From: Candidatus Zambryskiibacteriota bacterium
GTDB taxonomy: Bacteria; Patescibacteriota; Minisyncoccia; Phycocordibacterales; WO2-35-19
DNA length: 64,000 nucleotides
Assembly: GCA_048499675.1 (NCBI GenBank)
Contig: JASNZL010000002.1
Span: 40,138 to 104,137 of the forward strand
Reading direction: 5' to 3'
This document shows, in pieces, positions 8,851 through 18,380 of this stretch. The notes beneath the pieces are model-generated. The model searched no databases and was not told where the DNA came from. It saw nothing but the letters and a program-made list of their open reading frames with translations. The translations under genes were made by a program, and so were the position numbers. The stretch's first letter is position 1. Each line of letters begins with the position of its first letter.

Positions 8851-9036
8851 TTATAAATTAGATTATATCTTTTTTATATGATAATCTTTTTAGTACGGAG
8901 AGTTAACTCCGTGGATGAAAAGCAAACTTCTTTGCTTTTCATCCGGTCTGCGAACGGAAGTGAGCAGAATTGCCGTTGCGAGCTTTGCGAGCAGGCAATA
9001 GGTGGACGAAAGGGACTTTCGACCACTGCCATAAAC

Positions 9037-9124
9037 GGAGAGTTGGCTGAGTGGTCGAAAGCGCCTCACTGCTAACGAGGTGAGCCCTTTAAAGGCTCCG
9101 AGGGTTCGAATCCCTCACTCTCCG
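9037..9124 (+). tRNA. tRNA-Ser (anticodon GCT)
   Basis: Cloverleaf: acceptor GGAGAGT/ACTCTCC, D-arm with GG, anticodon loop CTGCTAA, long variable arm GAGCC-CTTTAAA-GGCTC, T-arm CGAGG-GTTCGAAT-CCCTC, discriminator G; no encoded CCA. Confidence 0.8.
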
Positions 9125-9258
9125 CTTGAGCTTCGCGAAAGCGGAGAGTGAGGTCTAGCTTTTGTGCAACAAAAGCGTAAGACGGATTCGAAGCCCGATT
9201 GAGATTTTTTAGGAGGACAACGAACTAAAAAATCCAATTGGGGTACTGAAGCTGTAAG
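9125..9258 (+). repeat. 134-bp element directly 3-prime of tRNA-Ser; direct repeat of 14922-15055
   Basis: Near-identical (2-3 mismatches) to 14922-15055; starts with a hairpin pairing the tRNA acceptor 3-prime strand; ends ...ggggtactgaagctgtaag. Confidence 0.8.
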
Positions 9259-9259
9259 C

Positions 9260-9299
9260 TTCGAATCCCTCACTCTCCGCTTGAGCTTCGCGAAAGCGG
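9260..9299 (+). repeat. 40-bp duplicate of tRNA-Ser 3-prime end (T-loop to end) plus 20 nt downstream
   Basis: Identical to 9105-9144 (ttcgaatccctcactctccgcttgagcttcgcgaaagcgg). Confidence 0.85.
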
Positions 9300-9351
9300 T
9301 GTGTATTGGACGAAGTTCGAATGTATTTCGGACAAAATCCGCAGGATTTTG

Positions 9352-9490
9352 ACGAATGACACTTGCGCCTCGCGCTCCCTTCGGTCGCGAACCAAAACCA
9401 AAAATTTCCTTACCAATCCTTTTTCGGCGGGGGGTGTGGGGGGAGCCGGCAAAAAATGGAAAGGAAAATTTTTGGTTTTGGTTCCGACGC
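9352..9490. repeat. left copy of an imperfect inverted repeat bracketing the 9.5-14.65 kb cargo; internally a 21-bp-stem hairpin with a G-rich loop
   Basis: Its reverse complement matches 14660-14795 (~85%); inner stem gaaccaaaaccaaaaatttcc / ggaaaatttttggttttggttc; loop contains cggcggggggtgtggggggagccggc. Confidence 0.75.
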
Positions 9491-9552
9491 TTCATAAATA
9501 CAGTATATGGCAATTTGGAATAATACACAATGGAATATTATTATATAAATAT

Positions 9553-9774
9553 ATGCCAAGAGCAATTTATCAAGATGACCACAAGAAAATCGTTGAGCGC
9601 TTGAAACAAGCACGGCTTGAGGTTGGTCTTGGGCAGGTTGAAGTTGCTGAGAAGCTTGGTAGAACTCAGTCGTATGTCTCAAAGATTGAATCAGGGCAAC
9701 GGCGCTTTGATGTTTTGCAACTCAAAGAGTTTGCAAAACTTTATAAAAAATCCTTGGATTTTTTTGTTAAATAA
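9553..9774 (+). CDS. XRE-family helix-turn-helix transcriptional regulator (C-protein-like)
   Basis: LKQARLEVGLGQVEVAEKLGRTQSYVSKIESGQRRFDVLQLKEFAKLY is a classic Cro/C1 HTH; the start is placed at the internal ATG because the upstream part of the track ORF lies in the repeat. Confidence 0.7.
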   Translation: MPRAIYQDDHKKIVERLKQARLEVGLGQVEVAEKLGRTQSYVSKIESGQRRFDVLQLKEFAKLYKKSLDFFVK

Positions 9775-9775
9775 C

Positions 9776-10858
9776 ATGAATCATAACCATGAAATTATAA
9801 TTACTAAGCAAGATGTTGTTCCGTACATCTATTTTGTATGTTCAATGGCTCAACGAGGCAGGATGTATGGGGGTCTTAGTGGAAAAAGTGATTATATTGG
9901 AGGGGTTTTTGATCGTTGGATAAATATAATTCCCGAAAGTGTAATTTTCAACAAATATTTTTTGCCCAGAATAGCCAATAATCTATCTGTCATTTCTGAC
10001 TATTATGAGTACGACCCAAAGAAATCCGGCATAGCCCCTGATGTGCTTGGTATAAGAGCTGGTCAAGACGCTAAGCCTTTTGTTGAATATGTAAATAAAT
10101 GGCAAGCATTAAATAATGCACCGCAAATTGAGGTAAAATCCTTCAAAAAAGCGCAGTACATGGTTAGTTTGAGGAACCAAGGGTACGACAATAAATATCT
10201 TGTCATGGTTGAAACAAATCTTGATAGCGATTACTTATTGCCTTTTTTTGAACAAACAGTCTTTAGTGAAGATGTCTACAACAAACTTAAAATGGACGAT
10301 AGAGTTTTTATAAAATCTAATGTTAACAATGACTTATCTTCCGTTACAAAAATTAATAGAAATAATACGGATTTAGGCTCACTAAAACTTATAACAGTTT
10401 GTTCAGCAAAAGATTTTATGTCTTTTTCAACTCTCTGCTCCTCAAATGAGAGCCCGATTTATGTAAAAGAAGTAAATGAAACTAGAACTGCAAAAACCAC
10501 TACAATTACAACGCCTTTATCTAATTATCTAACAAAAAATAGTAACAATTTATATAGTTGGAATAATAATTTGTTAGACAAAAATAACAAACATAAAATA
10601 CTAGATGTTTATATTGATGACATTCAAAACATTCATTTTGTAAAAAATAGTAAAAGCTCTATTACTATTACAACAACAGGTAGAGCCACTATAAATAATG
10701 TGGTTTTGGAAGCAAATAAAACCTATATTATTAAGTTCCAACTATTAGATCGTTCTTCAAACAATGGTGAGGAGTATTTTATGCATAAGTCCGTTATCGA
10801 TAAAATACCTAGTAAAGAGGACATTATGTTGGAGTCTATAAAGCAATATATAAAATAG
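9776..10858 (+). CDS. hypothetical protein, candidate restriction endonuclease partner of the adjacent methyltransferase
   Basis: 360 aa with no recognised family; weak PD...EVK pattern (IAPDVLGI ... IEVKSFKK); sits between the C-protein-like regulator and the convergent C5-MTase. Confidence 0.4.
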   Translation: MNHNHEIIITKQDVVPYIYFVCSMAQRGRMYGGLSGKSDYIGGVFDRWINIIPESVIFNKYFLPRIANNLSVISDYYEYDPKKSGIAPDVLGIRAGQDAKPFVEYVNKWQALNNAPQIEVKSFKKAQYMVSLRNQGYDNKYLVMVETNLDSDYLLPFFEQTVFSEDVYNKLKMDDRVFIKSNVNNDLSSVTKINRNNTDLGSLKLITVCSAKDFMSFSTLCSSNESPIYVKEVNETRTAKTTTITTPLSNYLTKNSNNLYSWNNNLLDKNNKHKILDVYIDDIQNIHFVKNSKSSITITTTGRATINNVVLEANKTYIIKFQLLDRSSNNGEEYFMHKSVIDKIPSKEDIMLESIKQYIK

Positions 10859-12436
10859 TTATTGCATTGCTCGCATCATTTCTTTTGCCACAGCTTCAAT
10901 AACAGGAACACTAACGGAATTTCCAGCTTGTTTGTATAGTGCCGAATCAGAAATTTTTGGAAGTTTGTAATTTTTTGGAAAGCCTTGAATTCTAAAACAC
11001 TCTAACGGAGTCAATTTTCGTATACCCTTTTTATCTTTTATGATTGGCACATTATGTCCACCTGTCCCCATGTTTGCAGTTAAAGTTGGGCAAACACCAC
11101 TTTTATTTTCTCTAACATATTGTCTGCGCCATTGATACACTTTACCTTCTTCCTTTACGTCATTTTTTAATCTTTCATATAATGGCTTGCCATTATAGTA
11201 ATATTTTTCAGGCACGTTTTTCTCCAATAGATCGGTTACTTTTTTCGTGAGCTTTATTGGTTTTGGAAACTCAAACTTATCAAAGTAGTTTTTATTTTTG
11301 AACCCTACAATATAGATACGCTCTCGATTTTGTGGCACATTTCCATACTCCATAGTATTTAGAACTTTTGATTTTACAAAGTATCCAAGATCTTCAAGTG
11401 TTTTTTCTATAACCTCAAAAGTTTTCCCCGAATCATGGCTCTTTAGATTTTTTACATTTTCAAGCAAAAAGCCTTCTGGTTTTCGTGCCTCAATGATCCT
11501 TGCAATATCGAAAAATAAATTTCCTCTATCCTTTTTATCTTTAAAGCCGTGCCTATATCCAGCAATAGAAAAAGCTTGGCAAGGGAAACCTCCTAAAAGA
11601 AAATCAAATTTAGGCAAATCATCAATTCCAATTTTTCGTATATCCTCAACTATTAATTTTGAATCTTTAAAATTAAGATCGTATGTATCTTTACATTGTG
11701 GTTCAAAGTCATTAGCAAAAACTGTTTGGAATCCAGCATTTTCAAAACCGATCCTTATCCCTCCTACACCCGCAAATAAATCTATTGTATTAAAACCATG
11801 TTTAGTTTTTTGTTTTGGCTTGAATTCTTCTTCGAACTGTATATTTCTAATTACTTGGACAACAACACCCCGAACTTCAACCTCTTTTCTATAAAATGGG
11901 AGCATTGATTGATTTCTCGGTTCAAGCCTAAACCGTGATTTTTCTCTATACAACTTTTTGAGTGTTGCTTCATTATCATCAATAATTGCAACGACTGTTT
12001 GTCCATTTTCTGCAACAGACTGTTTTTTTATCACAACAACATCTCCGTCAAAAATACCCTCGTCAATCATACTTTCTCCGACAACTCGTAGAGCATAATA
12101 ATCTTTAGAGTTTTGTATATTAGGATCAACAAGAGAGATAAAATCTTCTCGATTTTCTATTGCCTCAATAGGCTGTCCTGCCGCAATATTGCCTAAAATC
12201 GGAATTTCAACAACAGATTTTATTTCTTTCATGAGAGATAAACTTCTTGGAGAATTTTCAGACCTTGAAATATACCCCTTTGCCTCTAGGGAATTGATAT
12301 GCTCGTGAATGGTGGAAACTGCTTTTAGTTTTAGCTCTTTCCTGATCTCTTCAATCGTTGGGGAAATACCATTTTCAGAGATATATGTTTTTATAAAATC
12401 AAAAACCTGTTTTTGCTTTTTTGTAAGTTTAGACAT
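10859..12436 (-). CDS. fusion protein: complete LexA-like repressor (wHTH + S24 peptidase) fused to a Dcm-type DNA cytosine-5 methyltransferase
   Basis: N-terminal ~200 aa is LexA-like: MSKLTKKQKQVFDFIK...EIRKEL...EAKGYI, IAAG cleavage-site context, GESM serine, LKKL lysine, VVAII..ATLKKLYRE. C-terminal ~320 aa has m5C MTase motifs: DLFAGVGG (I), GGFPCQAFSIAG (IV), LLENV (VI), QNRERIY (VIII), GNSVSVPV (X). Confidence 0.8.
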   Translation of the reverse strand: MSKLTKKQKQVFDFIKTYISENGISPTIEEIRKELKLKAVSTIHEHINSLEAKGYISRSENSPRSLSLMKEIKSVVEIPILGNIAAGQPIEAIENREDFISLVDPNIQNSKDYYALRVVGESMIDEGIFDGDVVVIKKQSVAENGQTVVAIIDDNEATLKKLYREKSRFRLEPRNQSMLPFYRKEVEVRGVVVQVIRNIQFEEEFKPKQKTKHGFNTIDLFAGVGGIRIGFENAGFQTVFANDFEPQCKDTYDLNFKDSKLIVEDIRKIGIDDLPKFDFLLGGFPCQAFSIAGYRHGFKDKKDRGNLFFDIARIIEARKPEGFLLENVKNLKSHDSGKTFEVIEKTLEDLGYFVKSKVLNTMEYGNVPQNRERIYIVGFKNKNYFDKFEFPKPIKLTKKVTDLLEKNVPEKYYYNGKPLYERLKNDVKEEGKVYQWRRQYVRENKSGVCPTLTANMGTGGHNVPIIKDKKGIRKLTPLECFRIQGFPKNYKLPKISDSALYKQAGNSVSVPVIEAVAKEMMRAMQ

Positions 12437-12522
12437 ATTGCATTAAAAATTCATTTGCGCTACAATTTCATTGTAACCGAAAAGAAGCCGAAAAGTAAAG
12501 CGAGATTATCCACAATAATATT

Positions 12523-13764
12523 ATGAACGAACATTTTGAAAAATTTATAGATAATATCTCCCTGACTAAAAATCAAAGAGATGATTCTCTTACAAAATAT
12601 ATTGGAATATGCAAAACTCTGAATTCTGAATTCTACAGCTCAGAATATTCTGACTCTGTGAAGTTTTTGTTTGGCTCCTATAAGAAGAAAACAACCATTT
12701 CACATACAGGAAAAGATGTTGATGTTATTTTTAAAATCCCACAAGAAAAATTTGAAGAGTACCAAAAGCAAGAAAATGGACCCTCTAACCTGTTGACCAA
12801 AGTTAAAAATACTCTGAAAGACACTTATTCAACTACAGACAAAATAAAAAATTGGACAAAAGTGGTGGTGGTTGATTTCTCTACTTTTAAGGTAGAGATA
12901 CTCCCTGCGCTTGAAAAAGATGATGGTAAATTTATTGTTCCCAACACTGGAGATGGAGAAGATTGGATTATTTTTGATCCAAAAAGCGAAATAACGAGTT
13001 TTAAAAATTCAAATAACTCAAACAATGGGTTAACAAGAAACTTAATTAAAATTATCAAGAAATGGAAAATTGAAACAGGAAACGTAAATATAAAAACTTA
13101 CATTTTGGATAAGTACGTCATAGATTTTTTGAGTAATTATTCTTTTGCAAGTTATCCGAAAACCATTTTAGATTTTTTTGAATATTTGCATAAAAAAGAA
13201 AGTGGAACAAATATAGAAACAGCAAAAAATAGAGCAAAAAAAGCATATGCTTTTTACGAAGAAAACAATATTGAAAAGGCGGTAGAAGAATATCAAAAAA
13301 TCTTTGTGAATGGTTTCCCTAGAAATATTAAAAAAGAAGTTGGTGACTTTACAGATTACGTTAAAGCTCCAAATGAACAATTCATAGAAGATTTTTTTAG
13401 AGTTTCTTTAGATAAAAAAATAGACATTAATATTGAAACACGATGTAAACCTAAAAAAGGAGGCTTTATGAAGAGCATATTGTTGAGTAGATTACCAAAT
13501 GGTTGGGTATCTAAAAAAGATGATCTTGAGTTCGTTCTTAATACTAAAAACTTATCTGGGGAGTACTTAACTAAATGGAAAGTAAGAAATTTTGGCGAAG
13601 AAGCAACAAGAGATGGTAAACTCAGGGGAGAGATACTTGAGGATAATAATGGGATTCATAAATATAAAGACGGTGCGGCATTTTATGGAGAACATTTTTT
13701 AGAGTGTTACATTATTCAAAATAATATATGTATCGCGAGAAAAAGAGTTGTTGTACCAATATAG
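12523..13764 (+). CDS. pol-beta-superfamily nucleotidyltransferase resembling CD-NTase/SMODS (cGAS/DncV-like)
   Basis: FLFGSYKKKTTISHTGKDVDVIF fits the GS-x(9-13)-DhD signature, with a third acidic strand VVVVDFSTFKVEILPA; 413 aa; followed by a 2-TM partner. Confidence 0.45.
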   Translation: MNEHFEKFIDNISLTKNQRDDSLTKYIGICKTLNSEFYSSEYSDSVKFLFGSYKKKTTISHTGKDVDVIFKIPQEKFEEYQKQENGPSNLLTKVKNTLKDTYSTTDKIKNWTKVVVVDFSTFKVEILPALEKDDGKFIVPNTGDGEDWIIFDPKSEITSFKNSNNSNNGLTRNLIKIIKKWKIETGNVNIKTYILDKYVIDFLSNYSFASYPKTILDFFEYLHKKESGTNIETAKNRAKKAYAFYEENNIEKAVEEYQKIFVNGFPRNIKKEVGDFTDYVKAPNEQFIEDFFRVSLDKKIDINIETRCKPKKGGFMKSILLSRLPNGWVSKKDDLEFVLNTKNLSGEYLTKWKVRNFGEEATRDGKLRGEILEDNNGIHKYKDGAAFYGEHFLECYIIQNNICIARKRVVVPI

Positions 13765-13768
13765 AAAT

Positions 13769-14332
13769 ATGGATAAAAACAATCTATCAATCATAAGGCA
13801 ACAGTTTGCACAATGTGTGTTTACTCACAAGGTCTTGGAAAAGGCTTCTGATAGACTTGAGAAAGTAAATACGAAGATCAAATGGGCTAACGTCATAATT
13901 TTAGCCCTTGTTGTGGTTTTTCTTGTATTGCCAATTAGATTTCCTGAGTACTCATTTTTGAATGATGTCGCTATAGCCATAACAGTCTTTGAAATTTTAT
14001 TTGTCTATTTTCAAAAGGAATTTTCTTTTGAAGAAAAAGCAAAAGATCACAAAAAATTTGCCTTAAAATTTCTAGAGCTTCGTGATAAGTACAAAAATTT
14101 TATTGTTGATATAACAAACGGATTAGATAGTGGAGAAATCAGAACAAAGAGAGACCTTTTACAAGAACAGTATCAGATTATTAGTAGTTTAACCCCACAA
14201 ACTGAGTATATTGACTATAAAGAAGCGCAACTTGCTTTGTTGGGAAAAAATATTTCTGATGAAGAATTTACATGGTCTGACAAAGAGATAGATCGTTTTT
14301 TACCGAAAGAGTTAAGATTCGAAGAAGATTAA
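13769..14332 (+). CDS. small 2-TM protein, candidate SLATT-like effector partnered with the nucleotidyltransferase
   Basis: Two hydrophobic helices (WANVIILALVVVFLVLPI, VAIAITVFEILFVYF) then a charged C-term; overlaps the end of the upstream gene, suggesting coupling; an alternative TTG start lies at 13748. Confidence 0.4.
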   Translation: MDKNNLSIIRQQFAQCVFTHKVLEKASDRLEKVNTKIKWANVIILALVVVFLVLPIRFPEYSFLNDVAIAITVFEILFVYFQKEFSFEEKAKDHKKFALKFLELRDKYKNFIVDITNGLDSGEIRTKRDLLQEQYQIISSLTPQTEYIDYKEAQLALLGKNISDEEFTWSDKEIDRFLPKELRFEED

Positions 14333-14390
14333 AGAGGGTTTCGCTTGCGCGCGCATGGGAGGGTTGGGGCAAGCGCAATATGATTTGCTT

Positions 14391-14426
14391 GTGCCATTCG
14401 TCAGTTTGGCACAATCCGCTTTTTTA
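14391..14426 (+). terminator. rho-independent terminator after the 2-TM gene
   Basis: gtgcca-ttcgtcagtt-tggcac then aatccgctttttt. Confidence 0.5.
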
Positions 14427-14659
14427 GAGTTACCACGAACGCCGTCGAAGTCACAGAGCGAACACGAAGCAAGTACCGAGCAGGCATCGTGAGCGAATGC
14501 GAACGGCAAATGCGAGGTGATTGCGAAGTGTGAGCGGACGACAGAGCTATCACAAAACGCGGAGAGGAAGCGCCTCGCCCGACGCGAATGACGGAGAAAA
14601 GGACGGACGGAATATTGCCACCATGCTAAAATATACATACGAGTCCTTTTTGGAGGAAT

Positions 14660-14795
14660 GAAGCGGCGGAAACAAAACCATAAAATTTCCTTTCATTTTT
14701 TGAGCGGCTCCCCCCACACCCCCCGCCGAAAATGGATAGGTAAGGAAATTTTTGGTTTTGGTTCGCGACCGCAGGGAGCGAGGCGCGCACTGTTC
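14660..14795. repeat. right copy of the inverted hairpin repeat (partner of 9352-9490)
   Basis: ggaaacaaaaccataaaatttcc ... ggaaatttttggttttggttc stem with loop gagcggctccccccacaccccccgccg. Confidence 0.75.
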
Positions 14796-14921
14796 GCTTC
14801 ACCACGCCTGCCTGCGCCGAGGCTTCGGCAGGCAGGCAATCCGAGCGTACGATTTGGGTTCAAAGCCACCACGCGCTCCGCGCGTGCGAAGTGGGTTCGG
14901 GCAAAGGTTAGTATCTCACCG

Positions 14922-15055
14922 CTTGAGCTTCGCGAAAGCGGAGAGTGAGGTCTAGCTTTTGTGCAACAAAAGCGTAAGACGGATTCGAAGCCCGATTGAG
15001 ATTTTTTAGGAGGGCAACGAACTAAAAAATCCAATTGGGGTACTGAAACTGTAAG
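14922..15055 (+). repeat. second copy of the 134-bp tRNA-Ser-downstream element, followed by a tRNA-like 3-prime fragment with encoded CCA (15056-15079)
   Basis: cttgagcttcgcgaaagcggagagtgagg...ggggtactgaaactgtaag, then tttcgactcctgtcccatccacca, which parses as T-loop, T-stem 3-prime, 7-nt acceptor 3-prime, discriminator and CCA. Confidence 0.75.
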
Positions 15056-15094
15056 TTTCGACTCCTGTCCCATCCACCAAGTTTTACATTCAGC

Positions 15095-15127
15095 AAAAAG
15101 AGCGGGTTACTTCCGCTCCTTTTTGGG
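15095..15127. terminator. bidirectional terminator hairpin (gagcgg / ccgctc) with T runs on both strands
   Basis: aaaaagagcgggttacttccgctcctttttggg. Confidence 0.5.
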
Positions 15128-15130
15128 TTT

Positions 15131-15349
15131 TCAGACCCGAATGTGCTTGGCGAGCCAAGGAGTCTCTCTCGGTTGCTCGGGTAGTCCAACAAGAACAAAC
15201 CCTGAGTCAAAACGAGTTTGCTCGCGACGATTGTGTTCATCCCGTTGACCGTTGGCCTGAAATCCGCTTTCCGCAAGCAGATTCGTACCGCAACGGTCAC
15301 AAGCATCTCTTGACTCGAACTTACATGGACACACACTAGCATTTGGCAT
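15131..15349 (-). CDS. small Cys-containing protein in a GC-rich segment (possible zinc-binding)
   Basis: 72 aa MPNASVCPCKFESRDACDRCG...; SD-like gagagggg 4-5 nt upstream of the ATG; terminator directly downstream; GC content far above the local norm. Confidence 0.35.
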   Translation of the reverse strand: MPNASVCPCKFESRDACDRCGTNLLAESGFQANGQRDEHNRREQTRFDSGFVLVGLPEQPRETPWLAKHIRV

Positions 15350-15521
15350 TTTTCCCCTCTCTTTCTAGCGCTCCCGCAAGAGCATCTGTATTAATATTAC
15401 CACAAAAAGCACACTTACGCAAACAACTGTGGATATTGTTATGCCGGCTTAATTTGATAGAATTATAAATATTACTACTAATAAAGTTTCTAACTATTTA
15501 TAAGCATTTTTAACTAAAATT

Positions 15522-15890
15522 ATGGAAGAACAAAACAACACAACCCAAAATGAGTCACCAAAAACAGAGGAGGTGATAAAAATAGAAGCGCCCCGCAAAG
15601 AAAATTTATGGGCAATACTTTGTTATCTAGGAATTCTTATTATCATTCCATTTTTAATAGCAAAAAATAATTCTTTTGTTAAATACCACATCAAACAAGG
15701 TTTGGTTTTGCTTGCCCTATCATTTATCGCTTGGTTACTTCCGATGACTCACGATTCTTTTGATTTTGTTTCTGGCATAATAAATATTGCAATATTTATA
15801 CTATCAATAATTGGTATAATAAACGTAGTTCAAAACAGAGAAAAGGAATTGCCTCTTGTTGGTCAATTTTCAAAATATTTTAAATTTTAA
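15522..15890 (+). CDS. small membrane protein (DUF4870-like topology)
   Basis: 122 aa, 3 TM helices, acidic N-term. Confidence 0.45.
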   Translation: MEEQNNTTQNESPKTEEVIKIEAPRKENLWAILCYLGILIIIPFLIAKNNSFVKYHIKQGLVLLALSFIAWLLPMTHDSFDFVSGIINIAIFILSIIGIINVVQNREKELPLVGQFSKYFKF

Positions 15891-15892
15891 TT

Positions 15893-16147
15893 ATGAACAA
15901 CAAACCACTAATTATTACGCTTGTCATCGTCATTTTTATCCTAGGGGGATTATTTTACATTTACAATCCTGAACCGGTAGAAATAGGTAATAATGAAGAA
16001 GAAAATGTTGTTTGTACCATGGATGCACTACTATGTCCTGATGGAAGTTATGTAGGTAGAGTTCCGCCAGATTGTCAGTTTGAAGCTTGCCCAATTCCAG
16101 ACGATGCTGTTATGGAAGATGGAGTAATATTAGATGACAACAATTAA
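15893..16147 (+). CDS. small secreted/anchored Cys-rich protein
   Basis: 84 aa, N-terminal TM, CTMDALLCPDG...PPDCQFEACP. Confidence 0.4.
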   Translation: MNNKPLIITLVIVIFILGGLFYIYNPEPVEIGNNEEENVVCTMDALLCPDGSYVGRVPPDCQFEACPIPDDAVMEDGVILDDNN

Positions 16148-18380
16148 ACAGGATACGCCGATTGAAGAATTTCAAAGACTTTCGCCTATCCAAAAGAAGG
16201 CGCTACTAAAGCTACGTCTCAAAAGTGCAATAGACCTCCTTAGATATTTTCCCCAAAGATATGGCGAAGCAACTTCTACCAAATCAATTGAATATTTAAC
16301 ACAAGGAGAAAGTGCTGTAGTTTTTGGTAAAATTTCAAACTTAAAAACAGCAAAAACTTTTAAATCAAAGACTGCAATATCAAGCGCTTCAATAGAAGAT
16401 GCAACAGGAAAAGTGAGCTTGGTTTGGTTTAATCAACCCTACATTGCAAAAATGTATTTGACTGAATCTTTGGTGCGAATTGAGGGCAAAGTATCTCAAA
16501 AAAAAACTGGTGAGTTGTATTTTTCTAATCCAAAAATAGAGAAGGTTTCAAAAATCCCAGATGGAACAAGTGACACTCTTTTTATTGGAGAAGATTTCAG
16601 TAATATGTCTCCCGTATATCCCGAAAGTAGAGGGATTACATCAAATTGGATATACCACGCAATCCAAAGGATATTTGGTAGCGGGATACTAGAAGAAATT
16701 ATTGATCCCATTCCTGAATATATTTTAAAAAAATACAATCTTCCTACAATAAAAACCGCTCTTGTTTGGATTCATTCACCAAGAAAAAAAGAGGACGCGG
16801 AAATCGCTAGAAAAAGATTTGCGTTTGAAGAAATATTTTTTATCCAACTAGATAGACAAAGGGAGAAATTCCTAGCTCAAAAAGAAAAATCATTTATTAT
16901 TTCAAAATCAAAAAAAGAAATTAGAGATTTTACTAGCAGTTTTCCTTTTCCATTAACAGGAGCACAAGACAGATCCATCGAGACAATACTTTCTGATCTA
17001 AAAGATGGAGACCCTATGTCCCGTCTTTTGGAGGGGGATGTTGGCAGTGGCAAAACTGCAGTTTCAGCAACGGCAAGTTTTGCAGTAGTAACAACCACCC
17101 CACCAAATAGAGAAGTTGGTAATTTGCAAGTAGCGTATATGGCGCCTACCGAAATATTAGCCGAACAACATTTTGAATCTTTTATTGAATATTTCAAAAA
17201 ATACAAAATACAAATCGGATTAATTACAGGGAGCGGAGCAAAAAAGTTTCCATCAAAATCAAACCGCGAACTTTGGACAAAAATATCAAAACCCCAATTA
17301 TTAAAATGGGTAGAAAATGGTGAAATTGGTGTACTTATTGGTACCCACTCACTCATACAAAAGACTGTTAAATTCAAAAATTTGGCCCTTATTATAATAG
17401 ACGAGCAACATCGTTTTGGTGTTAGTCAACGTCGTGCGTTGGCTCGCGGAAAAATGCAGAATCAAACGCAGAATAACGCAGAACAAAAAACCGCTCAAAA
17501 TTCTACAGATATTTCCGTACCTAGTTCGGTCCAGAGAGCACCCATTCCGCATTTACTTAGTATGACCGCTACTCCAATCCCTAGAACTCTAGCGCTCACA
17601 CTTTTTGGTGATTTGGATTTATCAATACTCGATGAACTACCAAAAGGAAGGCAATTGCCTCTAACAAAAATAGTCTTGCAGACCGAAAGAGAAAGTGTTT
17701 ATGAAAAAATAAGAGAAGAATTAAATTCTGGAAGACAGGCTTATGTTATTTGCCCGCGAGTAAACGACCCAGATCCAGATATGGAAACTGCAATAAATGC
17801 TAAATCAGTGAAGTCCGAAATAGAAAGATTACAAACAAAAATTTTTAAAGAGTTTAAAGTCAGAGGAATTACCGGCAAAGACAAACCCAAAGAAAAAGAA
17901 GAAGTAATGAGAGATTTCAAAGAAGGAAAATTTGATATTCTGGTGGCCACTTCTGTTGTGGAAGTTGGGGTTAATGTTCCAAACGCAACAGTAATGATAA
18001 TAGAAAACGCAGAAAGATTTGGACTTGCTCAACTTCATCAACTGAGAGGCAGAATCCTCCGAAGTTCACACAAACCATACTGCTTTGTTTTTGCAGACAG
18101 CCAAAGCCAAAAAACAGTTAGTAGATTGAAATCTTTTGTTAATGCTAAAAATGGTTTTGAGCTGGCAGAAGCCGATATGCAACAAAGAGGAATTGGTGAT
18201 TTAACAGGAGTAAAACAGTGGGGAGTATCTGACCTTGCAATGGAAGCGTTGAAAAATATAAAAATGGTTGAGTACGCAAGAGAAGAAGCAAAAAGCTTAA
18301 TAGAAAAGGATTATGAATTAAAGAATTATCCCCTACTCCGAGATAAATTATTTCAGAAAGAAGGGGTACATATGGAGTAG
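16134..18380 (+). CDS. recG: ATP-dependent DNA helicase RecG
   Basis: LLEGDVGSGKT (Walker A), IIDEQHRFGV (DEQH), LSMTATPIPRTLA, C-terminal helicase domain; contains a Gln/Asn-rich low-complexity insert. Confidence 0.85.
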   Translation: MTTIKQDTPIEEFQRLSPIQKKALLKLRLKSAIDLLRYFPQRYGEATSTKSIEYLTQGESAVVFGKISNLKTAKTFKSKTAISSASIEDATGKVSLVWFNQPYIAKMYLTESLVRIEGKVSQKKTGELYFSNPKIEKVSKIPDGTSDTLFIGEDFSNMSPVYPESRGITSNWIYHAIQRIFGSGILEEIIDPIPEYILKKYNLPTIKTALVWIHSPRKKEDAEIARKRFAFEEIFFIQLDRQREKFLAQKEKSFIISKSKKEIRDFTSSFPFPLTGAQDRSIETILSDLKDGDPMSRLLEGDVGSGKTAVSATASFAVVTTTPPNREVGNLQVAYMAPTEILAEQHFESFIEYFKKYKIQIGLITGSGAKKFPSKSNRELWTKISKPQLLKWVENGEIGVLIGTHSLIQKTVKFKNLALIIIDEQHRFGVSQRRALARGKMQNQTQNNAEQKTAQNSTDISVPSSVQRAPIPHLLSMTATPIPRTLALTLFGDLDLSILDELPKGRQLPLTKIVLQTERESVYEKIREELNSGRQAYVICPRVNDPDPDMETAINAKSVKSEIERLQTKIFKEFKVRGITGKDKPKEKEEVMRDFKEGKFDILVATSVVEVGVNVPNATVMIIENAERFGLAQLHQLRGRILRSSHKPYCFVFADSQSQKTVSRLKSFVNAKNGFELAEADMQQRGIGDLTGVKQWGVSDLAMEALKNIKMVEYAREEAKSLIEKDYELKNYPLLRDKLFQKEGVHME

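What the first reader, a model, noticed from the sequence alone, without database searches (positions are those of the whole stretch)
9105..15127. Insertion at tRNA-Ser carrying an RM-like module and a CBASS-like pair, bounded by 134-bp direct repeats and ~140-bp inverted hairpin repeats
Seen directly: tRNA-Ser(GCU) ends at 9124. The next 134 bp (9125-9258) recur almost identically at 14922-15055. The tRNA 3-prime 20 nt plus 20 nt downstream are duplicated at 9260-9299. Two ~140-bp elements (9352-9490 and 14660-14795) are reverse complements of each other, each folding into a 21-bp-stem hairpin with a G-run loop, and they bracket five genes: XRE regulator, hypothetical, LexA::Dcm-MTase, nucleotidyltransferase, 2-TM protein. 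The right boundary is followed by a different tRNA-like 3-prime fragment with encoded CCA and then ~1 kb of GC-rich (~55%) non-coding DNA. The r-protein operon is cut off exactly here: L5, L24 and L14 are not upstream of S14. This looks like an integrated defense island in a streamlined CPR-like genome. No integrase or transposase is present, so how it mobilises is unknown.
Basis: partly seen in the sequence, partly recalled or inferred. Interest (0 to 1): 0.85.

Follow-up and report, generated by a model that had tools for sequence, protein, structure and literature searches.

The report
Orphan hairpin-bounded defence cassette at tRNA-Ser
A 5.6-kb block of anti-phage genes just after a serine tRNA gene in a tiny-genome (CPR/Paceibacteria) bacterium is a worn, recombinase-less copy of a widespread and apparently undescribed family of hairpin-bounded gene cassettes that normally sit beside a large serine recombinase at the 3' ends of tRNA genes.

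Summary
The genes are as called: XRE regulator, a PD-ExK restriction-endonuclease candidate, a full LexA fused to a C5 methyltransferase, and a type I CBASS pair (cyclase plus 2TM effector).

The structure is not a one-off. The 22-nt loop of the hairpin repeat (H) has exact matches in at least 120 metagenome contigs and one viral contig. The usual layout there is: tRNA 3' end, palindrome a / large serine recombinase (LSR) / a', TERM, H, XRE, variable cargo (mostly RM systems), conserved non-coding gc1, H', TERM'.

The window copy keeps TERM-H, gc1 and H'-TERM'. It has no LSR; a 17-nt palindromic stub sits in the LSR position. Its inverted repeats are 91% identical, against 98-100% in most relatives, so it looks old.

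The 134-bp direct repeats are TIR-only "empty cassettes" built from tRNA-Ser 3'-end copies. Each starts with the same 23-nt dyad core (three copies).

The ribosomal operon break is also present in the relatives L007 and L008. In L007 it lies beside a homologous locus with different cargo, so this cargo did not cause it.

How the cassette moves is inferred, not shown: LSR supplied in trans, or homologous recombination.

The parts
9037..9124 (+). tRNA-Ser(GCU). No encoded CCA here, unlike its closest relative L005, which has CCA.
9122..9144 (+). Dyad core copy 1: CCG, 17-nt stub CTTGAGCTTCGCGAAAG, CGG. It forms a 15-bp hairpin with the tRNA 3' end. It sits where LSR-bearing relatives have a-LSR-a'.
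   Evidence: (z -5.6)
9142..9279 (+). Empty cassette Y1. It holds an inverted copy of the tRNA-Ser 3' half (9142-9153 and 9184-9196) split by a hairpin, then a second hairpin, then a direct 20-nt tRNA 3' copy (9260-9279). Segment 9145-9259 is absent from variant contig L001.
   Evidence: z -9.0
9277..9299 (+). Dyad core copy 2.
9297..9363 (+). TERM, the outer part of the left terminal inverted repeat (L095 type): CGGTGTGTATTGGACGAAGTTCGAA... Read outward it resembles a tRNA 3' half.
9364..9495 (+). H (left hairpin repeat). Loop GGCGGGGGGTGTGGGGGGAGCC. Sharp inner end at ...CGCTTCAT.
9553..9774 (+). XRE/HTH_3 regulator, 73 aa, probable control protein. The same small XRE sits next to H in 17 of 30 cassettes.
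9776..10858 (+). ORF360, a restriction-endonuclease candidate with a PD-ExK fold. P88-D89 and E119-V-K121 are invariant.
   Evidence: its slot is held by R.Bsp6I in L207-L211
10859..12436 (-). LexA (DNA-binding domain plus S24 peptidase) fused to a C5 cytosine methyltransferase, 525 aa.
12523..13764 (+). CBASS oligonucleotide cyclase (SMODS plus AGS_C).
13769..14332 (+). SLATT_4 2TM effector.
14338..14657 (+). gc1, a conserved non-coding module. It is 82-92% identical in the 13 full-length copies and hit in 63 loci. It is not coding and has no stable fold.
14658..14795 (-). H' (right hairpin repeat), the inverted copy of H.
14796..14921 (-). gc2 plus TERM' of the L193 type. TERM' is about 14893-14921, GGGTTCGGGCAAAGGTTAGTATCTCACCG. 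This is the outer part of the right terminal repeat.
14919..14941 (+). Dyad core copy 3.
14939..15079 (+). Empty cassette Y2. It is the 98.5% copy of Y1, but it ends in a foreign tRNA-like 3' end with CCA (15056-15079).
15100..15133 (+). Terminator-like hairpin (GAGCGG...CCGCTC) followed by a T run.
   Evidence: read

Best explanation
The region 9125-15079 is a small array of cassettes attached to the 3' end of tRNA-Ser(GCU). It belongs to a family of elements common in Paceibacteria metagenomes.

In complete members the order is:
- tRNA 3' end
- a 120-200-nt palindrome (a/a') that encloses a large serine recombinase (LSR) gene convergent with the tRNA
- TERM
- hairpin H
- XRE
- variable cargo
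- gc1
- H'
- TERM'

The outer ends of a/a' are the last 4-7 nt of the tRNA and their complement. TERM ends read outward look like tRNA 3' halves (GTTCGA, then about 20 nt, then CACCA or CCGCC). Each cassette junction is therefore a dyad: one real or mimicked tRNA end facing another.

Inferred mechanism: the LSR recognises these dyads. It inserts itself at their centre and can excise, insert or invert the DNA between two dyads.

The window holds three such dyads with an identical 23-nt core. They delimit an empty cassette (Y1), the 5.6-kb defence cassette (9297-14921) and a second empty cassette (Y2). The LSR has been lost, leaving a 17-nt palindromic stub. The cassette is now fixed unless an LSR acts in trans or homologous recombination acts between the 134-bp repeats or the conserved arms.

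Shown: the architecture, the family, the LSR-tRNA linkage, cargo turnover, and decay of the window copy. Inferred: that the LSR acts on the dyads, and what H and gc1 do.
For: Spread of the family:
- The H loop 22-mer has exact matches in at least 120 metagenome loci and one viral contig.
- Twenty-seven of 31 two-copy loci show the window's + ... - arrangement. Another three show the - ... + arrangement; where TERM could be located (L153, L168) this is a loop flip at both ends.

LSR linkage:
- LSR homologues (Resolvase, Recombinase, Zn_ribbon_recom) occur in about 30 of the H-bearing loci.
- In 15 of 19 interpretable loci the LSR 5' end faces the XRE end of the cassette.
- In all 11 loci where a tRNA is seen next to the LSR, the LSR 3' end abuts the tRNA 3' end.
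- Nested inverted repeats: 132-142 nt around the LSR and 214-388 nt around the cargo, overlapping by 12-42 nt.

Cargo turnover:
- LSRs 94-96% identical (L153, L095, L104, L115) flank unrelated cargo.
- Of 117 cargo ORFs, 65 are singletons. Pfam hits are mostly RM enzymes.
- The H-cargo boundary is sharp.
- L007 sits at the same chromosomal locus with TdeIII REase, an N6/N4 MTase, LexA and HNH instead. It shares gc1 plus H at 84% (about 87-90% in the conserved core, read) although flanking proteins are only 65-76% identical.
- L200 is the L007-type cassette (same H-cargo junction sequence and matching gene sizes) with both terminal repeats intact.

LSR-less copies: window, L007 and L113 all have tRNA-Ser, a palindromic stub, then TERM-H. 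The window stub resembles a hairpin inside L193-type a.

Decay of the window copy: its terminal repeats are 90.9% identical, the second lowest of 30 elements.

Same RM module in other settings:
- L212: after tRNA-Ser(CGA), with remnants of gc1 and TERM'.
- L208: a divergent terminal-repeat family, an LSR and tRNA-Glu.
- A phage contig carries H followed by XRE, MTase and REase.
Against: - No LSR is present in the 64-kb window, and none can be shown elsewhere in this genome.
- No excised circle, and no empty site for the whole cassette, was observed.
- Serine-integrase att sites are normally about 50 bp with a 2-bp core. The 120-390-nt inverted repeats here are far longer than that model needs, so H, gc1 and a may serve other roles.
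- The two ends of a cassette are inverted repeats. On simple rules that predicts inversion rather than excision.
- The only orientation isomers seen (L103, L176, and L208 versus L209) could be assembler choices, because those repeats exceed k-mer length.
- The resemblance of TERM to a tRNA 3' half is by eye, with a spacing 4-6 nt longer than in real tRNAs.
- The metagenome hits were selected by an exact loop match, so the invariance of the loop is partly circular.
Confidence: 0.7

Rival explanations
1. Exchange by homologous recombination only. H, TERM and gc1 are conserved for some other reason (insulation, regulation). They merely provide 140-460-bp homology arms, so cargo is swapped by RecA after DNA uptake. 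The LSR moves only itself.
For: The arms are 82-95% identical between elements and 98-100% identical within elements. Only a-LSR-a' looks like a discrete unit with perfect ends. The phage copy has a single H and no LSR. L212 shows swapping at the level of single genes, with DUF5677 in the CBASS slot.
Against: The H-cargo junction is the same to the nucleotide across unrelated cargo classes. The LSR is adjacent and consistently oriented. TERM ends mimic the LSR's tRNA target. The same RM module recurs directly downstream of four different tRNA genes (Ser-GCU, Ser-CGA, Gln, Glu), in one case with an intervening LSR.
Confidence: 0.3
2. Invertible (phase-variable) defence cassette. The LSR is an invertase that flips the DNA between the long inverted repeats and so switches expression of the RM/CBASS genes or of the LSR itself.
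For: Inverted repeats flank the cassette and a serine recombinase gene lies next to them. Opposite orientations are seen in L103 and L176. L208 and L209 carry the same cassette at 99.97% identity but flipped relative to the murE flank. Near-perfect arm identity within elements.
Against: Fifteen of 19 interpretable loci are in one orientation. The isomers may be assembly ambiguity, because the repeats are longer than k. Cassettes carry their own XRE promoter regions, so no outside promoter is needed. Inversion does not explain cargo diversity or the tRNA linkage.
Confidence: 0.25
3. Ordinary decayed tRNA island made by a tyrosine integrase that has since been lost. The repeats are attL/attR scars, and the link to the LSR family is coincidental.
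For: There are direct copies of the tRNA 3' end (9260-9279) and a foreign tRNA-like end with CCA. This pattern is well known for integrase islands and tycheposons (bioRxiv 10.1101/2020.12.28.424599).
Against: No integrase appears among the 25 most frequent Pfam families (of 74 detected) in 83 cargo proteins, nor among the genes checked in the window, L007 or L208-L214. The window flanks are homologous to flanks that sit beside LSRs in about 30 loci.
Confidence: 0.08
4. Assembly artefact: collapsed or duplicated repeats.
For: Short-read contigs break at every repeat. L001 lacks one unit.
Against: The repeat copies differ at fixed positions (2 of 134 for the direct repeat; 9-11% for the inverted repeat). 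The junctions X2/tRNA-like end and H/cargo are reproduced 100% in independent Logan contigs. The same architecture recurs in many unrelated assemblies.
Confidence: 0.03

Closest known systems
SCCmec / ccr cassette chromosome elements (staphylococci, enterococci)
   Same: Large serine recombinases. Insertion at the 3' end of one conserved gene. Tandem arrays of cassettes separated by repeated att-like sites. Recombinase-less cassettes that persist. Frequent RM and defence cargo (background knowledge; PMC6222049 is listed but was not read).
   Different: The target here is a tRNA 3' end, not rlmH. The LSR lies inside a 120-200-nt palindrome outside the cargo. Cassette ends are 200-390-nt inverted repeats with a 140-nt hairpin, plus a conserved 320-nt non-coding module. 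SCC boundaries are short direct and inverted repeats.
Tycheposons of Prochlorococcus (bioRxiv 10.1101/2020.12.28.424599)
   Same: Cargo-carrying elements in a streamlined genome. They target tRNA genes, leave partial tRNAs and degenerate recombinase-less remnants that build islands, and a few use large serine recombinases.
   Different: In that study 910 of 937 elements use tyrosine recombinases, and many carry replication or packaging modules. No hairpin terminal repeats and no gc1-like module are described there. The cargo there is mostly nutrient-acquisition genes, whereas here it is mostly RM and defence genes.
Integron gene cassettes
   Same: A conserved platform with exchangeable cassettes, separated by imperfect palindromic sites that can fold as hairpins. 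Cassette boundaries are sharp.
   Different: There is no IntI tyrosine recombinase. The palindromes are 5-10 times longer and lack R/L boxes. The cassettes carry their own regulator and promoter. The ends are inverted rather than head-to-tail.
Serine-invertase segments (Hin/Gin/Pin) and epigenetic invertons
   Same: A serine recombinase gene lies beside a segment flanked by inverted repeats. A link between serine recombinases and defence genes has been noted (PMC13552941).
   Different: Those systems use small recombinases, 26-bp sites and a fixed segment content. Here the recombinase is large, the repeats are hundreds of bp, and the content is highly variable.
C-protein-controlled type II RM units and type I CBASS
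   Same: The gene content of the cargo matches both.
   Different: The methyltransferase is fused to a complete LexA. The endonuclease belongs to an unnamed family.

Membership tests
Type II restriction-modification system | C5 methyltransferase with the conserved motifs (FxGxG, PCQ, ENV, QxRxR, GN) | tested here: met
   PF00145 at 1.3e-94, TIGR00675 at 348 bits. DLFAGVGG, GFPCQAFS, ENVKNL, QNRERIY and GNSVSV are read in the translation.
Type II restriction-modification system | Cognate endonuclease | tested here: inconclusive
Type II restriction-modification system | Control protein with an operator | tested here: inconclusive
   The XRE protein matches PADLOC Control_protein models only weakly (1.5e-4). 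AT-rich palindromes lie upstream of XRE in relatives. Binding was not tested.
CBASS (type I) | CD-NTase with GS...DxD active-site residues | tested here: met
   PADLOC cyclase PDLC00796 at 1.8e-90; SMODS plus AGS_C. FGSY...DVDV is read in the translation. The NCBIfam match is below its cut-off (104 versus 200 bits).
CBASS (type I) | Adjacent effector and no Cap2/Cap3 genes | tested here: met
   SLATT_4 at 8e-32, PADLOC 2TM effector at 5e-40, starting 5 nt after the cyclase stop. No other genes lie in the unit.
tRNA-integrated genomic island | Lies at a tRNA 3' end and is flanked by copies of that end | tested here: met
tRNA-integrated genomic island | Encodes its own integrase | tested here: not met
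   No recombinase among the ORFs of the island. No LSR anywhere in the window by tblastn.
LSR-associated H/TERM cassette family (defined here) | H hairpin pair in inverted orientation with the invariant loop | tested here: met
LSR-associated H/TERM cassette family (defined here) | TERM outside H at both ends, XRE at the tRNA-proximal end, gc1 at the distal end | tested here: met
   The two TERMs are of different subtypes.
LSR-associated H/TERM cassette family (defined here) | LSR within the a/a' palindrome between the tRNA and TERM | tested here: not met
   A 17-nt stub sits in its place. The same is true of L007 and L113.
SCC-like (ccr) elements | ccr-type LSR acting on short ISS/att direct repeats at rlmH | tested here: not met
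   The target is different, and no LSR is present in the window. The relationship of the family LSR to Ccr was not tested.
Integron | IntI tyrosine recombinase, attI, and attC sites with R/L boxes | tested here: not met
   No tyrosine recombinase among the genes checked. H lacks a GTTRRRY core (read).
TIR transposon / MITE | Terminal inverted repeats plus target-site duplication | tested here: not met
   Terminal inverted repeats are present. The flanks of 8 complete elements show no duplication, only a continuation of the inverted repeat.
Serine-invertase switch | Both orientations present in one population | tested here: inconclusive
   L208 versus L209, and L103 and L176. Confounded by assembly ambiguity.

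The most novel reading that the evidence does not exclude
Paceibacteria, and at least one of their phages, carry an integron-like cassette system run by a large serine recombinase. The recombinase sits in a palindrome at a tRNA 3' end. Cassette ends mimic tRNA 3' ends, so any two such dyads can be recombined. This lets whole defence operons, each with its own regulator, a conserved hairpin (H) and a conserved non-coding module (gc1), be excised, inverted, stacked and moved between tRNA genes, genomes and phages. H and gc1 would then be new cis-acting parts of a recombination or insulation machinery.
Probability: 0.3. Interest if true: 0.85.

Novelty: new variant of a known kind. Interest (0 to 1): 0.68.

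Why it matters
CPR bacteria have tiny genomes and are thought to have few classical mobile elements, yet they exchange genes readily.

A conserved platform that is easy to recognise (one 22-nt probe found at least 120 loci) and carries mostly RM systems, with occasional CBASS, Thoeris-like TIR and other genes, would help explain how these organisms acquire and turn over phage defence. It would also give a practical marker for finding new defence genes in CPR metagenomes.

The recombinases appear to target the conserved 3' ends of tRNA genes. Their cognate sites can be read directly from the sequence, which makes them testable candidates for genome engineering.

The widespread fusion of a complete LexA to a cytosine methyltransferase suggests a link between the SOS signal and restriction-modification that has not been studied.

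Tried and rejected
1. Structured RNA (tmRNA, RNase P and similar) in the GC-rich DNA. Rfam at E up to 5 found nothing beyond the tRNA. gc1 has fold z about 0 on both strands, no conserved ORF and no 3-nt periodicity. RNAalifold on 101 H copies recovered only the 5 pairs closing the loop, because the alignment of the arms is not structure-aware. Covariation in the arms was therefore not established.

2. H as a peptide gene (MKRRNQNQKF...). The reading frames diverge between copies.

3. Active flip-flop of the H loop. The flipped loop belongs to one sequence subfamily, so it reflects old events.

4. Target-site duplications around complete elements. None were found.

5. Other copies of the repeats, or of an LSR, in the 64-kb window. 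None were found.

6. An empty site for the whole island. Logan look-ups with S14 and the MamF-like protein gave only short contigs. L005 ends 64 nt after the tRNA.

7. The gc1 29-mer in viral contigs gave 0 hits.

8. Literature. No paper among those searched described this architecture. The search covers open-access text only.

9. The foreign tRNA-like 3' end was not found in any fetched locus outside this population.

Full report
**1. Observation**

tRNA-Ser(GCU) lies at 9037-9124. The repeats are as described.
- 9125-9258 recurs at 14922-15055 with 132/134 identity. Without gaps the match extends to 151 nt.
- The last 20 nt of the tRNA plus the next 20 nt recur 40/40 at 9260-9299.
- 9364-9495 and 14658-14789 are 132-nt reverse complements at 89-91%.
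- Each inverted-repeat arm folds into a long interrupted hairpin with a G-run loop. DNA z-scores are -5.5 and -5.1, and no shuffle out of 200 folds as well.
- None of these sequences occurs elsewhere in the window.
- The core CCGCTTGAGCTTCGCGAAAGCGG occurs three times against 0.00 expected.

Independent Logan contigs from SRR21762701 reproduce 9385-14768 and 15018-17138 at 100% and break inside the repeats. The structure is therefore not an assembly artefact. The GC-rich non-coding DNA spans 8890-9500 and 14333-15420 in a genome of about 34% GC.

**2. Genes**

- XRE/HTH_3, 73 aa.
- ORF360 has no Pfam, NCBIfam or PADLOC match.
- A 525-aa protein combines LexA_DNA_bind, Peptidase_S24 and a C5 methyltransferase. 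The LexA part matches the LexA equivalog at 196 bits over its full length.
- A SMODS plus AGS_C cyclase (PADLOC 1.8e-90).
- A SLATT_4 2TM effector.

**3. Host and the ribosomal operon**

L6 finds its closest relatives among Paceibacteria (Zambryskibacteria- and Nomurabacteria-like MAGs). L5, L24 and L14 are absent from the window.

L007 (L6 76% identical) has the same order: S14, tRNA-Ser(GCU), an island, then small84-RecG. L008 also lacks L5, L24 and L14 within 10 kb of S14. In 63 further relatives the L5-S14 spacer ranges from 8 nt to 6.9 kb, median 751 nt, and holds miscellaneous accessory genes. The break is shared with these relatives, and in L007 it lies beside a homologous locus with different cargo, so this cargo did not cause it.

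**4. The same locus in L007**

L007 carries different cargo: TdeIII endonuclease, an N6/N4 methyltransferase, a free-standing LexA (45% identical to the window's LexA part) and an HNH protein.

Its non-coding flanks are homologous to the window's.
- Window 14349-14780 (gc1 plus H') matches at 84% over 444 nt; the conserved core is about 87-90% identical by eye.
- Window 9296-9495 (TERM plus H) matches at 83%.
- A 29-nt inner fragment of H lies on the other side of the cargo.

The flanking proteins are only 65-76% identical, and their DNA is not detectable by blastn. The flanks are therefore either under strong constraint or themselves mobile.

**5. The family**

Of 31 loci with two copies, 27 show the window's + ... 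- arrangement. Another three show - ... +, which in L153 and L168, where TERM could be located, is a loop flip at both ends.

Alignment of the outer sides defines a further conserved module, TERM (GGTGTGTATTGGACGAAGTTCGAA...). An alternative insert, gc2, can lie between TERM and H.

The inner end of H is sharp...CGCTTCA(N)|. It is followed either by one of several XRE promoter classes or by gc1. gc1 is hit in 63 loci. Its 13 full-length copies are 82-92% identical to the window's, and it always lies at the end of the cargo away from XRE. It has no conserved reading frame, no codon periodicity and no stable fold.

A 70-83-aa XRE lies next to H in 17 of 30 cassettes. The remaining cargo is highly diverse, with 65 singleton families among 117 ORFs, and is dominated by RM enzymes:
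- N6_N4 methyltransferase in 9 proteins, C5 methyltransferase in 3
- D12 methyltransferase, and HindIII, HaeIII and DpnII endonucleases
- ResIII, type ISP, AAA_15/21, LexA and others

**6. The recombinase**

Next to many cassettes lies a 1.4-1.5-kb unit flanked by its own perfect inverted repeats a/a' of 118-142 nt; in one case (L194) only 52 nt of the arm could be seen, at the contig end. These repeats overlap the cargo repeats by 12-42 nt. The unit encodes a large serine recombinase (LSR) with Resolvase, Recombinase and Zn_ribbon_recom domains.

tblastn finds homologues at 25-100% identity in about 30 H-bearing loci. In 15 of 19 interpretable loci the LSR 5' end faces the XRE end of the cassette. 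In all 11 loci where a tRNA is visible next to the LSR, its 3' end abuts the tRNA 3' end. The tRNAs are Ser-GCU, Ser-UGA, Ser-CGA, Lys, Leu, Arg and Phe, and Glu in the divergent L208 family.

The a/a' palindrome starts inside the tRNA, at its last 4-7 nt, and ends with their complement at the first bases of TERM. Read outward, TERM resembles a tRNA 3' half: GTTCGA, then 20-24 nt, then CACCA or CCGCC. This is my reading, not a statistical test.

**7. Cargo turnover and mobility**

- LSRs 94-96% identical (L153, L095, L104, L115) flank unrelated cargo.
- L153 and L168 carry homologous cargo next to tRNA-Ser(UGA) and tRNA-Ser(CGA) respectively.
- L200 is the L007-type cassette, with the same H-cargo junction sequence and matching gene sizes, and both terminal repeats intact.
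- The window's XRE-ORF360-LexA::Dcm module (84% DNA identity) lies after tRNA-Ser(CGA) in L212. There DUF5677 occupies the CBASS slot, and only remnants of gc1 and TERM' remain.
- ORF361 plus LexA::Dcm lies directly after tRNA-Gln in L214.
- In a viral contig of about 50% GC, a single H followed by XRE, a C5 methyltransferase and an endonuclease forms a 37-43% GC patch.
- L208 and L209 hold the same 6.6-kb cassette at 99.97% identity but in opposite orientation relative to the murE flank. This may be a real inversion. It may also be the assembler's choice, because the 246-nt repeat exceeds the k-mer length.

**8. Reading the window with this key**

From left to right:
1. tRNA-Ser 3' end.
2. 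Dyad core 1 (9122-9144).
3. Y1. This holds an inverted copy of the tRNA-Ser 3' half split by a hairpin, then a second hairpin, then a direct 20-nt tRNA 3' copy. It folds as a three-way structure with z -9.0.
4. Dyad core 2 (9277-9299).
5. TERM of the L095 type (9297-9363).
6. H.
7. XRE, ORF360, LexA::Dcm, cyclase, SLATT.
8. gc1.
9. H'.
10. gc2 plus TERM' of the L193 type, ending at 14921 (21/23 and 44/53 collinear matches).
11. Dyad core 3 (14919-14941).
12. Y2, which ends in a foreign tRNA-like 3' end with CCA.
13. A terminator-like hairpin.

L007 has the same right-hand order: TERM', a palindromic stub, an inverted tRNA half with inserted hairpins, then ...GACCGAATCCCCTCTTCCGCCA.

The place that holds a-LSR-a' in complete members holds a 17-nt palindromic stub in the window. 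The stub is 30 nt in L007 and 39 nt in L113. The window stub resembles a small hairpin inside L193-type a. This fits loss of the LSR by deletion within the palindrome.

The closest relative, L005, has the identical tRNA 3' end with an encoded CCA followed by AT-rich DNA. The window tRNA lacks CCA, as expected if the crossover lies at the very end of the gene.

A 99.8%-identical contig from another sample, L001, joins 9144 directly to 9260. Y1 is therefore polymorphic, either through recombination between cores 1 and 2 or through k-mer collapse.

The window's terminal repeats are 90.9% identical, the second lowest of 30 elements. Most others are 98-100%, although many of those values come from contig ends.

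**9. Mechanism**

The most likely mechanism, at about 0.4 for the mechanistic part, is this. The LSR recognises dyads formed by a real or mimicked tRNA 3' end facing another. It resides at the dyad centre and recombines pairs of dyads, so that cassettes can be inserted, excised, stacked (L104 has two in tandem) or inverted. The window copy is a recombinase-less array. It can move only if an LSR acts in trans, or through homologous recombination between the 134-bp repeats or the conserved arms.

Rival readings:
- Exchange by homologous recombination only.
- A phase-variable inverton.
- A decayed tyrosine-integrase island.

The roles of H (invariant loop) and gc1 remain unexplained.

**10. Comparison and novelty**

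The nearest known systems are the following.
- SCCmec/ccr cassette arrays: LSRs, a conserved-gene 3' end as target, recombinase-less cassettes, defence cargo.
- Tycheposons: tRNA-targeting cargo elements in a streamlined genome that leave partial tRNAs.
- Integrons and serine-invertase switches resemble it in single respects.

None of these combines an LSR enclosed in a palindrome at a tRNA end, 200-390-nt hairpin-bearing inverted ends that mimic the target, and a conserved non-coding module. I found no description of such a combination in the searchable literature.

I file it as a new variant of a known kind: recombinase-driven cassette islands linked to tRNA genes. The window's own copy is an ordinary-looking relic. 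The interest lies in the family it reveals.

Noticed in passing
window 10859-12436 (-); P0001-P0120: A complete LexA (DNA-binding domain, Ala-Gly cleavage site, Ser/Lys dyad) fused to a C5 methyltransferase is widespread in CPR bacteria. More than 120 clusters at 79% identity or above share the same three domains. They are annotated either as LexA or as Dcm. This suggests SOS-linked control of an RM system.
   Followed up: partly
window 9776-10858 (+): ORF360 represents an unnamed family with 445 homologues. It has a PD-ExK fold and contig lengths suggest it co-occurs with LexA::Dcm. It is probably a new type II endonuclease family that alternates with R.Bsp6I in the same slot.
   Followed up: partly
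L010-L084, between L5 and S14: The L5-S14 spacer of the ribosomal protein cluster is a variable region in Paceibacteria, ranging from 8 nt to 6.9 kb. It holds DUF285/FG-GAP surface proteins, glycosyltransferases, a MutS-like protein, AAA_14, threonine synthase and others.
   Followed up: partly
L002 190-1233: In a 97% relative, a LAGLIDADG_3 ORF lies between tRNA-Ser and S14.
   Followed up: no
window 8895-9036; L007 8060-8200: Upstream of tRNA-Ser, both genomes carry a partial copy of the tRNA 5' end interrupted by GC-rich hairpins. This suggests rearrangements on the 5' side as well.
   Followed up: no
window 14338-14657 and at least 63 loci: gc1 is a highly conserved, purine-rich, non-coding module of about 320 nt with no stable fold. 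It contains GAGCGAA-like repeats. Its function is unknown.
   Followed up: partly
L208 / L209 (ERZ4198920, JGI 3300038304): The same 6.6-kb cassette (ThsB_TIR, 8xMP, LexA::Dcm, R.Bsp6I, XRE) appears in opposite orientations relative to the flanking murE region. This is either a real inversion or an assembly ambiguity.
   Followed up: partly
window 15131-15349 (-): A 72-aa Cys-rich ORF lies in GC-rich DNA (gc3) right of the island. It is called as a gene in L003, has no family match, and has no homologue in the fetched loci.
   Followed up: no
window 19.0-20.1 kb, 29.5-32.3 kb, 37.0-38.3 kb: Three further GC-rich patches occur in this AT-rich genome, one of them next to tRNA-Gly. They share no sequence with the H/TERM/gc modules and were not characterised.
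   Followed up: partly
L212 9254-9568: A GIY-YIG ORF lies directly after tRNA-Ser(CGA). It is followed by a tRNA-like 3' fragment (…CCCGCCTCCGCCA) ahead of the RM module.
   Followed up: no
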